DNA of 27,519 nucleotides from Candidatus Micrarchaeota archaeon (GTDB taxonomy: Archaea > Micrarchaeota > Micrarchaeia > Norongarragalinales > Norongarragalinaceae), in the NCBI GenBank assembly GCA_043805205.1, contig JAZDIF010000074.1, forward strand, positions 1 to 27,519. The letters run 5' to 3'. Shown piece after piece: positions 25,134-27,203 of this stretch. How positions within the stretch are numbered: position 1 is the stretch's first letter; the number at the start of each line of letters is the position of its first letter. Under the pieces are notes generated by a model. It did no database searches and had not been told where the DNA came from. It saw nothing but the letters and a program-made list of their open reading frames with translations. The position numbers were made by a program, and so were the translations under genes.

Positions 25134-25685
25134 TTAGAACGATACTTTCACGTTCTTCCTCTCGCTCTCGGCAGTTTGGAAGAACTCCCTTTTCTTGAAG
25201 CCGAACGGTCCTGCGAGAGTGTTGTTGGGGAAGACTTGAATGCCGTTGTTGTAGTCGAGAACAGAGTCGTTGTAAAACTGGCGGGCGTAAGCGATTTTTC
25301 CTTCAATGTCGCTCAACTCTTCCTGCAGTTCCTTGAAGTTGGCGCTCGCCTCGAGCTTCGGGTATGCTTCCGCAACGGCGAAAATGCTCTTGAGCGCGTC
25401 GGTGAGCATGTTGTTCGCCTTGGCCTTCTGCCCGATAGTCTGGGCGCGCAGCATGGCGCTTCTCGCTTCGGTAACTTCCTTGAACACTCCCCGCTCGTGC
25501 TTGGCATATCCTTTCACCGTTTCCACGAGGTTGGGAATCAAGTCGTTTCTTTTCTTTAATTGAACATCAATTTGCGACCAGGAGTTGTCCACAGTGTTCC
25601 TCGAGCGGATGAGCCCGTTGTACAACAATACGAGGAACAGCAGTACGATGAACACTAGCCCGCCGATAATCCATTCTATAGTCAT
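25134..25685 (-). CDS. lemA: LemA family protein
   Basis: N-terminal TM, YNGL, WSQIDVQLKKRNDLIPNLVETVKGYAKHE, AEAYPKL and ARQFYNDSV. The usual lemA-htpX pairing is present. Confidence 0.96.
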   Translation of the reverse strand: MTIEWIIGGLVFIVLLFLVLLYNGLIRSRNTVDNSWSQIDVQLKKRNDLIPNLVETVKGYAKHERGVFKEVTEARSAMLRAQTIGQKAKANNMLTDALKSIFAVAEAYPKLEASANFKELQEELSDIEGKIAYARQFYNDSVLDYNNGIQVFPNNTLAGPFGFKKREFFQTAESERKNVKVSF

Positions 25686-25756: not shown

Positions 25757-25764
25757 TTAATAAA
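25757..25764 (+). promoter_or_regulatory. TATA-like box (TTAATAAA) for the C/D sRNA
   Basis: About 25-32 nt upstream of box C. Confidence 0.45.
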
Positions 25765-25785: not shown

Positions 25786-25841
25786 TTAGTGATGATACCG
25801 TCCCAGTCTGACTTTGTGATGACCGAGGTAGCTTCTGATGA
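25786..25841 (+). ncRNA. Box C/D 2'-O-methylation guide sRNA (dual guide; predicted targets 23S rRNA G2251 and U2438, E. coli numbering)
   Basis: Box C GTGATGA 25789-25795, 12-nt guide TACCGTCCCAGT, box D' CTGA 25808-25811, box C' GTGATGA 25816-25822, 12-nt guide CCGAGGTAGCTT, box D CTGA 25835-25838. Both guides are complementary to conserved 23S domain V sequences recalled from memory. Confidence 0.93.
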
Positions 25842-25895
25842 AAGAAAACCCTGAAATAGAAGGGGTTTAAAAAGACACTATTCCTAGCCTTTTTG

Positions 25896-27203
25896 ATGGG
25901 AAAGGCTGAAGAGGAAGAAGGAATTCAGGGAAAGAGAAGCGAGTACGCTAATGAACGGTTTATTGATGAGAGGGTTTATGCTTCTCTCTGCGAAGAGTAC
26001 CCTGAATTGCTTTCTAAAAATGGAGAGGCTAGTTTTCGTACGAAGAACTTGGCTAGAGTGTTGGCTGACAAGCGACTGTCTAGAAGCAATAGGGAAAGGC
26101 TATTGGAGTTTAACAGGGAGAAGGAGATTGAAGGCTTGAGCTTAGGCTCTAGGTACAACTACTTGTACAACCTGAAGAGCTTGGCTGTTAGCGTCAGGAA
26201 GAACTTCGGGGAAATGACTGAAGAGGATTTGAAGAAGTACCTAGCGAAGAAGAGCTATTTGAAAAGCCCAGAGTTTAAGATTTGCATTAGGCGGTTTTTC
26301 CAGTGGGCTTATGGCTTGAAGGACGGAGAGTACCCTAAGGTTATTTCTTGGTTGAGATTGTCTTTTGACAAGAAGAGGAAGCTTCCTGAAGAGATGCTGA
26401 CGCAAGAGGACGTTTTAGCTTTGGTTAAAGCCTGCGATAACGAGAGGGACAAGGCTATTGTAATGGTTTTGTACGACACTGGAATGAGAGCTGGAGAGCT
26501 TGTGAGTTTGGAAGTGAAACACTTTCAGCCGGACAAGTACGGCGGTTGTCTGCTTATTCCAGACGGGAAGACTGGAAGCCGGAAGGTTAGGCTGACGCTC
26601 TCCCTTCCAACATTAAGAAACTGGTTGAACAACCACCCTAACAAAGACAAGCCTAACAGTGCTTTGTTTCCGCTTCAGAGGGATTACTATTCGCATATTA
26701 AGAACGTAAATTACTTGGGCTATTTACTGAACCAGTTGAAGAGAAGAAGCGGTTTGAAGAAGAGGCTTTACTCTCACTTGTTCAGGCACTCTAGAGCCAC
26801 TGAAATGGCTTCAGAGTTTTCAGAGCAAGAGCTGAAAATGTTTTTCGGCTGGACTGCTGGAAGCAATATGCCCGCTAATTACATTCATATGAGCTTCAAC
26901 AACTTGGACAGGAAGATTTTGGCTAAGGAAGGGCTTTTGGAAGAGAAGGACAAGGAGAAGAAGCTCTTGGAAATGAAGGTTTGCTCTCGTTGTGGAACTA
27001 GGAATTCTGCTGACGCTGTGCTTTGCTCTAGCTGTAGCTTCAATTTGGAAAGCGAAAAGCTGATGCTAGGCGTACTGAAGGAATTGGTTTCCCAGAACAC
27101 TCCTGAAGCGACTGCTGTCGGAAAGGCTATTTTGAAGCAAATGGGTGGCGTGAATTTTGAAAAAGACGGGAAGAAGTACCGGCTTGAGCTTGTTTCAGAC
27201 TAA
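25896..27203 (+). CDS. Tyrosine recombinase/integrase with C-terminal zinc ribbon
   Basis: Catalytic set YDTGMRAGEL (R), GKTG (K), HLFRHSRAT (HxxR), FGW (W), NYIH (Y); CSRC-x10-CSSC Zn ribbon. TTTAAAAA TATA-like box at 25866-25873 suggests a leaderless ATG 25896. Confidence 0.95.
   Translation: MGKAEEEEGIQGKRSEYANERFIDERVYASLCEEYPELLSKNGEASFRTKNLARVLADKRLSRSNRERLLEFNREKEIEGLSLGSRYNYLYNLKSLAVSVRKNFGEMTEEDLKKYLAKKSYLKSPEFKICIRRFFQWAYGLKDGEYPKVISWLRLSFDKKRKLPEEMLTQEDVLALVKACDNERDKAIVMVLYDTGMRAGELVSLEVKHFQPDKYGGCLLIPDGKTGSRKVRLTLSLPTLRNWLNNHPNKDKPNSALFPLQRDYYSHIKNVNYLGYLLNQLKRRSGLKKRLYSHLFRHSRATEMASEFSEQELKMFFGWTAGSNMPANYIHMSFNNLDRKILAKEGLLEEKDKEKKLLEMKVCSRCGTRNSADAVLCSSCSFNLESEKLMLGVLKELVSQNTPEATAVGKAILKQMGGVNFEKDGKKYRLELVSD

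What the first reader, a model, noticed from the sequence alone, without database searches (positions are those of the whole stretch)
25786..25841. Unannotated dual-guide box C/D sRNA predicted to methylate the 23S P loop (G2251) and U2438
Seen: a perfect C-guide-D'-C'-guide-D layout with two 12-nt guides and its own TATA-like box. The D' guide TACCGTCCCAGT pairs with ACUGGGGCGGUA (one G-U wobble), and the N+5 rule lands on the G equivalent to E. coli G2251, the widely conserved P-loop 2'-O-methylation made by a stand-alone enzyme (RlmB) in bacteria. The D guide CCGAGGTAGCTT pairs with AAGCUACCUCGG just upstream of GGAUAAC (A2451 region), targeting the U equivalent to U2438. rRNA sequences and numbering are from memory. 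This implies an active fibrillarin/Nop5/L7Ae system in a probably reduced archaeon, with both targets at the peptidyl transferase centre.
Basis: partly seen in the sequence, partly recalled or inferred. Interest (0 to 1): 0.8.

Follow-up and report, generated by a model that had tools for sequence, protein, structure and literature searches.

The report
Two-guide rRNA methylation guide RNA
This is a genuine small guide RNA of a tiny-genome archaeon, conserved across its whole class, that most likely directs sugar methylation of two nucleotides near the ribosome's catalytic centre; it is an ordinary kind of RNA with one odd conserved mispair.

Summary
Window 25789-25838 (+) reads GTGATGA, 12 nt, CTGA, CTTT, GTGATGA, 12 nt, CTGA. 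That layout occurs twice in the 772-kb genome and never in 20 shuffles.

Homologues with both guides occur in 52 of 68 genomes of the same order and in other families of the class. The closest fibrillarin relatives are named Candidatus Micrarchaeota. Flanks are not conserved. An A/T peak sits 26-30 nt upstream. Many orthologues carry covarying terminal stems. Fibrillarin and Nop5 are adjacent, and L7Ae is present. The only SpoU-family gene is TrmJ-like, not RlmB.

The D' guide pairs with the P loop, and N+5 falls on E. coli G2251. A compensatory guide/target change in two relatives supports this.

The D guide places N+5 on U2438. However, the predicted AAGCUACCUCGG was found in no 23S examined. 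The lineage has AAGCUACCCCGG, giving 8 Watson-Crick pairs, a conserved A.C mismatch at guide position 9, then 3 pairs. Positions 8 and 10 covary.

This organism's own 23S domain V is not assembled, and the only full-length 23S in the bin appears to be misbinned.

Both target sites are already predicted for other archaeal sRNAs, so this is a new member of a known kind. No expression data could be found.

The parts
25757..25764 (+). TATA-like element TTAATAAA, 25-32 nt upstream of box C (putative archaeal promoter)
   Evidence: Sequence. Across 19 orthologues the -30..-26 window is 87% A+T against about 55% in flanking windows. The promoter function is inferred.
25786..25841 (+). Approximate extent of the box C/D sRNA; the ends are not mapped
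   Evidence: The covariance model R1, built from orthologues, matches 25787-25840 at 62.5 bits, E 2e-17. Only sub-threshold Rfam C/D hits cover this stretch.
25789..25795 (+). Box C, GTGATGA
   Evidence: TGA and GA are invariant in the 20-sequence alignment.
25796..25807 (+). D' guide TACCGTCCCAGT (12 nt). It pairs with the 23S P loop, and its fifth base from box D' faces the G equivalent to E. coli G2251
   Evidence: Positions 2-10 pair in every genome where both sRNA and 23S were recovered. G057 and G059 show a compensatory change (target C2254U, guide G to A).
25808..25811 (+). Box D', CTGA
25812..25815 (+). 4-nt D'-C' spacer CTTT (K-loop type). Other lineages have 9-15 nt that form a small stem-loop
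25816..25822 (+). Box C', GTGATGA
25823..25834 (+). D guide CCGAGGTAGCTT (12 nt). It pairs with 23S helix 74, and its fifth base from box D faces the U equivalent to E. coli U2438. There is an A.C mismatch at guide position 9
   Evidence: Position 10 covaries (G-C to A-U) in six genomes. Position 8 covaries in G009.
25835..25838 (+). Box D, CTGA

Best explanation
Window 25786-25841 (+) encodes an independently transcribed archaeal box C/D sRNA. L7Ae would bind the C/D K-turn and the C'/D' K-loop, and a Nop5 dimer with two fibrillarin copies would assemble on them. Each 12-nt spacer then pairs with nascent 23S rRNA, and fibrillarin 2'-O-methylates the nucleotide opposite the fifth guide base upstream of box D' or D. 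The D' guide selects the P-loop G equivalent to E. coli G2251. The D guide selects the helix-74 U equivalent to U2438, 13 nt 5' of A2451. Both sites lie in domain V, so the RNA may also hold the two segments together during folding. Shown here: the anatomy, conservation, guide/target complementarity with covariation, and the presence of the core protein genes. Inferred: transcription, RNP assembly and the methylations themselves.
For: 1. The box layout is perfect, has two 12-nt spacers, and is far from chance. 2. The family occurs in 52 of 68 genomes of the order and 69 of 151 genomes sampled from the phylum. Boxes and guide cores are conserved while flanks are not. 3. N+5 falls on G2251 and U2438. 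4. Guide and target covary. For the D' guide, position 8 changes G-C to A-U in G057 and G059. For the D guide, position 10 changes G-C to A-U in G005, G029, G036, G038, G046 and G052, and position 8 changes in G009. 5. In five relatives, the 23S site is the only recurrent near-match to the D guide apart from the sRNA gene's own antisense strand. 6. In G001 and G031 the sRNA and the 23S lie on the same contig, so those pairings are not binning artefacts. 7. 34 of 76 orthologues have a terminal stem of 3 bp or more in K-turn register, against 12 expected and at most 20 in 1000 partner shuffles. The stem sequences differ between lineages. 8. An A/T peak lies at -30..-26. 9. Fibrillarin and Nop5 are adjacent on C12, and L7Ae matches TIGR03677 at 138.8 bits. 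10. The only SpoU-family gene is TrmJ-like: RlmB scores 41 bits against a cut-off of 160. 11. The same guide cores occur in known sRNAs, namely P. calidifontis sR36 and N. equitans sR14, and in the SNORD31 consensus.
Against: No expression or methylation data exist; no RNA run could be listed. The organism's own 23S domain V is not assembled. The same-genus-like 23S on C51 ends after about 1650 nt, and C42 and C59 look misbinned, so the targets are inferred from three same-genus genomes. The D-guide duplex has a mismatch at position 9, leaving 8 contiguous Watson-Crick pairs. In vitro, an 8-bp substrate was not modified (PMC7229835). In G000 the terminal stem is weak: 3 A/U-type pairs, shifted by one base from the K-turn register. 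No Rfam family is reached at gathering score.
Confidence: 0.85

Rival explanations
1. It is a real C/D sRNA, but only the D' guide directs methylation (Gm2251). The mismatched D guide works as a tether or folding chaperone on helix 74, or methylates poorly.
For: The A.C mismatch at position 9 is conserved across the order. It is confirmed where sRNA and 23S share a contig, in G001 and G031. An 8-bp guide-substrate duplex was not modified in vitro (PMC7229835). The predicted duplex energy is -16.1 kcal/mol, against -23.0 for a perfect guide. Dennis et al. propose a chaperone role for dual guides (PMC4644070).
Against: Positions 10-12 pair, and position 10 covaries with the target, so the duplex is longer than 8 bp in practice. 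N+5 stays on the same U in every lineage. N. equitans sR14 and sRNAs of other orders of the class pair at this site without a mismatch, so the site is a usual methylation target.
Confidence: 0.25
2. The box pattern is a chance or decayed motif in an intergenic spacer and yields no functional RNA.
For: There are no expression data. No Rfam hit reaches gathering score. The terminal stem in G000 is weak.
Against: There were 0 hits in 20 shuffles. The element is conserved class-wide with non-conserved flanks. Guide/target and terminal-stem covariation are seen. The core protein genes are intact.
Confidence: 0.03
3. The sRNA gene also serves, in this genome, as the attachment site of an integrative element whose tyrosine integrase begins 58 nt after box D. 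It is an additional role, not an alternative identity.
For: The downstream ORF 25893-27203 matches Phage_integrase at 7.7e-21. No integrase lies within 1.5 kb of the sRNA in 22 orthologous loci, so the integrase is specific to G000.
Against: No repeat of 15 nt or more of the sRNA or its 3' flank exists elsewhere in the assembly. The contig ends 316 nt after the integrase, so a second att site cannot be seen.
Confidence: 0.1

Closest known systems
Pyrobaculum calidifontis sR36. Thermoproteus tenax sR7 and Methanopyrus kandleri sR13 are predicted to have the same target (Dennis et al. 2015, PMC4644070)
   Same: These are archaeal box C/D sRNAs with a guide against the P loop. The predicted target is alignment G2520, which is E. 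coli G2251. The sR36 guide AGCCGUCCCAGU shares the core CCGUCCCAGU, including the U that makes a G.U pair with G2253.
   Different: In sR36 the P-loop guide sits before box D, not D'. The partner guides hit other sites; for example, T. tenax sR7 pairs G2520 with U2544. None was reported from Micrarchaeota. Because the target is nearly universal, guide similarity may reflect convergence rather than common descent.
Nanoarchaeum equitans sR14 (Randau 2012; Dennis et al. 2015)
   Same: It comes from a DPANN archaeon. Its D guide AAGGAGUAGCUG pairs with AAGCUACUCC of the N. equitans 23S, with predicted target U2712 in alignment numbering. That is the same helix-74 U equivalent to E. coli U2438. Other orders of this class carry the near-identical guide CGGAGUAGCU.
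   Different: The sR14 D' guide (GAAAGCACAAU) has no predicted target and is not a P-loop guide. sR14 pairs without an internal mismatch, and its box D is CAGA.
Eukaryotic SNORD31 (Rfam RF00089) and yeast snR67
   Same: The guide UACCGCCCCAGU followed by CUGA in the SNORD31 consensus differs from the D' guide here by one base. By N+5 it addresses the same G. That G is Gm2619 in yeast 25S and G2251 in E. coli (PMC2584109). The assignment of snR67 to Gm2619 is from my own knowledge.
   Different: The score is 33.1 bits against a gathering score of 40, so this is not a family member. The match rests on the boxes and one guide. The second guide and overall length differ, and the eukaryotic RNP uses Nop56/Nop58/Snu13.
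Bacterial RlmB and mitochondrial Mrm1/Pet56 (protein-only Gm2251 methyltransferases)
   Same: The product is the same: 2'-O-methyl G2251 in the P loop (PMC2584109).
   Different: These are stand-alone SPOUT enzymes with no guide RNA. The only SPOUT/SpoU gene found in this genome is TrmJ-like.

Membership tests
Archaeal box C/D sRNA (methylation guide) | Terminal box C (RUGAUGA) and box D (CUGA) | tested here: met
   GTGATGA at 25789-25795 and CTGA at 25835-25838. Both are conserved in orthologues.
Archaeal box C/D sRNA (methylation guide) | Internal boxes D' and C' in the order C, guide, D', C', guide, D | tested here: met
   CTGA at 25808-25811 and GTGATGA at 25816-25822, with a 4-nt spacer.
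Archaeal box C/D sRNA (methylation guide) | Spacers of about 12 nt between box pairs | tested here: met
   Both spacers are exactly 12 nt. The same holds in nearly all orthologues.
Archaeal box C/D sRNA (methylation guide) | Guide complementarity of about 9-10 bp or more to a stable RNA, with the N+5 nucleotide paired | tested here: met
   D' guide: positions 1-10 pair with same-genus 23S (two G.U pairs), and N+5 is C:G2251. D guide: 8 Watson-Crick pairs, an A.C mismatch, then 3 Watson-Crick pairs, and N+5 is A:U2438. The D guide meets the criterion only if pairing across the mismatch counts.
Archaeal box C/D sRNA (methylation guide) | Terminal stem closing the C/D K-turn | tested here: inconclusive
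   G000 has only 3 A/U-type pairs, one base out of register. Across the family, 34 of 76 members have stems of 3 bp or more with differing sequences, above shuffled controls.
Archaeal box C/D sRNA (methylation guide) | Genome encodes fibrillarin, Nop5 and L7Ae | tested here: met
   Fibrillarin scores 257 bits and Nop5 159 bits, and the two are adjacent on C12. L7Ae on C52 matches TIGR03677 at 138.8 bits against a cut-off of 134.6.
Archaeal box C/D sRNA (methylation guide) | Expressed as a small RNA, and the target ribose is methylated | not testable with these tools
   No RNA run could be listed, and only one weak DNA holder, a freshwater metagenome, was found.
Rfam SNORD31 (RF00089) and archaeal sR and snoPyro_CD families | Score at or above the family's gathering threshold | tested here: not met
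   SNORD31 scores 33.1 against 40, sR12 scores 23.3 against 38, and snoPyro_CD scores 20.1 against 45. The gathering-threshold scan of the window found only a tRNA.

The most novel reading that the evidence does not exclude
The non-Watson-Crick pairs in both duplexes may be selected rather than tolerated. These are G.U at position 7 of the D' guide and A.C at position 9 of the D guide. The A.C moves to position 8 or 7 in two lineages but is never lost in this order. They could weaken two very G+C-rich 12-nt complementarities. A low-temperature organism with only 2-3 guide RNAs could then still unwind the duplex ends to fit the 10-bp limit of the Nop5 dimer and release the rRNA. That would be a tuning rule for methylation guides in mesophilic DPANN archaea.
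Probability: 0.2. Interest if true: 0.55.

Novelty: new member of a known kind. Interest (0 to 1): 0.35.

Why it matters
It shows that Micrarchaeota-like DPANN archaea, with genomes under 1 Mb, keep the RNA-guided methylation machinery. They appear to keep only two or three guide RNAs. One of these is aimed at two nucleotides beside the peptidyl transferase centre and has persisted across the class. This suggests which rRNA ribose methylations a minimal archaeal ribosome retains. It gives annotators a model for an RNA that standard Rfam thresholds miss. The conserved A.C mispair is a small, directly testable question about how guide strength is tuned. It does not change what is known about C/D RNPs.

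Tried and rejected
1. Rfam at gathering score found no C/D family. The permissive scan gave only sub-threshold C/D hits.

2. I searched five relatives for an alternative perfect target of the D guide. Only the sRNA gene's own antisense strand matched perfectly, and the 23S site was the only recurrent one-mismatch site.

3. I tested whether a 16S look-alike, AACCUACCUUGU (C51:2383, also in G004), explains the conserved A at guide position 9. The site is not conserved in the order, most genomes have C there, and guide position 3 mismatches. I rejected it.

4. I first treated the C42 23S as the organism's own. It is only about 74-75% identical to same-genus 23S genes, whereas the C51 fragment is 88-89% identical. 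C42 most resembles 23S genes of other genera of the family.

5. A SpoU methylase was considered as a protein route to Gm2251. It is TrmJ-like.

6. Two searches for sequencing runs listed no RNA runs.

7. I folded the sRNA with and without an A9G change to look for guide self-structure. The intramolecular difference was small (-8.8 against -10.0 kcal/mol) and not explanatory.

8. I looked for an att-like repeat of the sRNA 3' end elsewhere in the genome. Only 13-14-mers turned up.

9. My first terminal-stem count used the wrong register. I redid it with the one-base offset that a K-turn requires.

Full report
**1. What is in the sequence**

On the + strand the window reads GTGATGA (25789-25795), TACCGTCCCAGT (25796-25807) and CTGA (25808-25811). 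It continues with CTTT, GTGATGA (25816-25822), CCGAGGTAGCTT (25823-25834) and CTGA (25835-25838). This is the canonical archaeal order of box C, guide, D', C', guide and D, with two spacers of exactly 12 nt.

The stretch is intergenic. Upstream and divergent is a LemA-family gene (25685-25134, minus strand). Downstream is a tyrosine-integrase ORF (25893-27203, plus strand).

A strict pattern for the layout occurs twice in the 771,682-bp genome and never in 20 shuffled genomes. Allowing two box mismatches gives three sites, against 0-1 in ten shuffles.

**2. Conservation**

BLAST of the region against 60 relatives found the same element in most of them, with the match confined to the sRNA. I built a sequence model (R1) from 20 orthologues.
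- R1 finds one copy in 52 of 68 genomes of the order.
- It finds a copy in 69 of 151 genomes sampled across the phylum, including many other families of the class.
- Two families gave no hits, at 0 of 45 and 0 of 25.

Reading 76 orthologues shows conserved boxes and guide cores. The D' guide core is ACYGUCCCAG. The D guide core is GAGGUAGCU in this order and GGAGUAGCU elsewhere. Flanking sequence is unrelated between genomes.

Two further features point to a structured, independently transcribed RNA.
- A/T content peaks at 87% at -30..-26 from box C, against about 55% nearby. This is where an archaeal TATA box would sit if transcription starts at the sRNA 5' end. In G000 the element is TTAATAAA at 25757-25764.
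- 34 of 76 orthologues have a terminal stem of 3 bp or more in K-turn register. Shuffled partners give 12 on average and at most 20 in 1000 shuffles.
- These stem sequences differ between lineages: CGGC/GCCG, UGGC/GCCA, GGGC/GCCC, CAAC/GUUG and UUGC/GCAA.

G000 itself has only a weak 3-pair A/U stem, one base out of register. Where the D'-C' spacer is long, it forms a small stem-loop such as GCGCAAGCG. In G000 the spacer is a 4-nt K-loop.

**3. Host and machinery**

The genome is a 772-kb bin of 104 contigs, 83% complete. The closest fibrillarin relatives, at 79% and 64% identity, are named Candidatus Micrarchaeota.
- Fibrillarin (257 bits) and Nop5 (159 bits) are adjacent on contig C12.
- L7Ae on C52 passes the equivalog model TIGR03677. 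A second L7Ae-fold protein is L30e.
- The only SpoU-family gene is in the TrmJ family. RlmB scores 41 bits against a cut-off of 160.

No protein-only route to Gm2251 was found, within the limits of an incomplete genome.

**4. Which 23S belongs to this organism**

The bin holds three different 23S pieces that are 75-78% identical to each other.
- The C51 fragment is 88-89% identical to the 23S of same-genus genomes G001 and G004.
- C42, the only full-length copy, is about 74-75% identical to them. C59 is about 78% identical.
- Domain V of C42 is 93-98% identical to 23S genes of other genera of the family.

C42 and C59 therefore look misbinned. The 23S on C51, which matches the genus best, stops after about 1650 nt. 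This organism's own target sites cannot be read. I infer them from G001, G003 and G004, which agree with each other.

**5. The D' guide**

Aligned to E. coli rrlH, the fifth guide base upstream of box D' faces G2251 of the P loop. On the C42 23S the match is 11 Watson-Crick pairs plus one G.U. On same-genus 23S genes (GCUGGGGCGGCA), positions 1-10 pair with two G.U pairs.

Across the order, positions 2-10 pair in every genome where both molecules were recovered. In G057 and G059 the target has U at 2254 and the guide has A instead of G at position 8, which is a compensatory change. Most guides keep a U opposite G2253. P. calidifontis sR36 has the same U, whereas the SNORD31 consensus has C.

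**6. The D guide**

N+5 falls on the U equivalent to E. coli U2438 in helix 74, 13 nt 5' of A2451. Most of the order reads AAGCUACCCCGG, including all three same-genus genomes. Some genomes read ACUCCGG or ACCCUGG at this position.

The duplex therefore has 8 Watson-Crick pairs, an A.C mismatch at position 9 (C2442), then 3 Watson-Crick pairs. This is not a binning artefact, because in G001 and G031 the sRNA and the 23S lie on one contig.

The target assignment is nevertheless sound.
- In five relatives, the 23S site is the only recurrent near-match apart from the gene's own antisense strand.
- Guide position 10 switches from G to A exactly where the target has U (G005, G029, G036, G038, G046, G052).
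- Guide position 8 is A where G009 has U2441.

Pairing on both sides of the mismatch is thus maintained by selection. The mismatch itself persists, moving to position 8 in G012 and position 7 in G035. Other orders of the class carry CGGAGUAGCU, a perfect complement to ACUCCG. N. equitans sR14 is similar and pairs cleanly with its own 23S.

**7. Why the mismatch might be there**

This part is unresolved. A 16S look-alike site does not explain it. The predicted duplex energy is -16.1 kcal/mol, against -23.0 for a perfect guide. The G.U pair in the D' duplex costs about 2.7 kcal/mol.

Published work shows that the Nop5 dimer limits the paired substrate to 10 nt. Pairing beyond 10 bp inhibits methylation at lower temperature, and an 8-bp duplex was not modified (PMC7229835). 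One possible reading is that a G+C-rich 12-nt complementarity is deliberately weakened in a low-temperature organism. This is an inference and I give it about 0.2. The opposite risk, that the D guide methylates poorly and acts mainly as a tether, I give about 0.25.

**8. Comparison with what is known**

Dennis et al. 2015 predict guide-directed methylation of alignment G2520, which is E. coli G2251, in three of seven archaea. Their tables give P. calidifontis sR36 (guide AGCCGUCCCAGU), T. tenax sR7 and M. kandleri sR13 for that site. For N. equitans sR14 they give D target U2712. From the guide and the N. equitans 23S sequence, that is the U2438 equivalent.

E. coli Gm2251 corresponds to yeast Gm2619 (PMC2584109). 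The SNORD31 consensus guide addresses the same G.

Both target sites and the mechanism are therefore known. Three points are new here.
- The two guides are combined in one RNA.
- The RNA is conserved class-wide in Micrarchaeota-like genomes that appear to have only two or three C/D sRNAs. The second, on C83, is also conserved, in 17 of 31 genomes.
- Non-Watson-Crick pairs are conserved in both duplexes.

No paper in the searched library mentions C/D sRNAs in Micrarchaeota. That search covers only the held library.

**9. Verdict**

This is a real box C/D sRNA (confidence about 0.9 or higher). The Gm2251 guide function is well supported computationally. The U2438 function is probable but weakened by the mismatch. 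Expression and methylation are untested because no RNA data could be found. I rate it a new member of a known kind, of moderate-to-low interest.

Noticed in passing
G000 contigs C42:43-2977, C51:4974-6620, C59:91-1752; 16S on C51:2276-4535 and C59:2306-3797: The bin holds three different 23S pieces (75-78% identical to each other) and two different 16S genes. Only C51 matches the same-genus rRNA (88-89%). C42 and C59 look misbinned, although reported contamination is only 0.19%.
   Followed up: partly
G000:C51:2276-4535: The 16S gene spans 2260 nt against a 1478-position model, so it probably carries an insertion or intron of about 780 nt.
   Followed up: no
Relatives' 23S, e.g. L053 (G004) and L063 (G003); also G007, G013, G025, G028, G038, G039, G046, G051, G055: The 23S is interrupted right after GGGGGUA(A), at about E. 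coli 2449-2451, by an insertion that often begins TTTCG. It is probably an intron. It lies about 6 nt 3' of the D-guide target duplex.
   Followed up: no
23S domain V of all relatives examined and N. equitans: The central-loop sequence reads GGGGGUAAC rather than GGGGAUAAC, so the base equivalent to E. coli A2448 is G. This holds throughout this order and in N. equitans.
   Followed up: no
G000:C83:1691-1746 (-): A second canonical C/D sRNA reads GTGATGA, 13 nt, CTGA, GCGCAAGCG, TTGATGA, 12 nt, CTGA. It has BLAST matches in 17 of 31 genomes, counting G000. Both guides have partial matches about 48 nt apart near the 3' end of the 23S, in C42 and in G001.
   Followed up: partly
G000:C55:392-441 (+): A third, weaker C/D-like candidate has two box mismatches and box D GTGA. 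It is found only within the genus (G002, G004).
   Followed up: partly
window 25893-27203 (+): A tyrosine integrase with a C-terminal zinc ribbon starts 58 nt after box D. No integrase lies within 1.5 kb of the sRNA in 22 orthologous loci. The contig ends 316 nt after the gene, so any far att site is out of view.
   Followed up: partly
window 25134-25685 (-); L015 (G059), L017 (G057): A LemA gene lies divergently upstream of the sRNA in G000 and also in two genomes of a different family (59% identity). It does not in same-genus G001 and G004, within the 1.5 kb examined.
   Followed up: no
window 25846-25868 (+): A 7-bp hairpin (AAACCCU, 9-nt loop, GGGGUUU) lies just 3' of the sRNA. It has no T-run after it and its role is unknown.
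   Followed up: no
L019 (G054), L025 (G042), L103 (G050): In one genus the P-loop guide is kept but the D guide is replaced by CCCAAAGACAGUUG or a similar sequence. In G042 the helix-74 site has changed to AAGGUACCACGG. This looks like guide turnover following target change.
   Followed up: no
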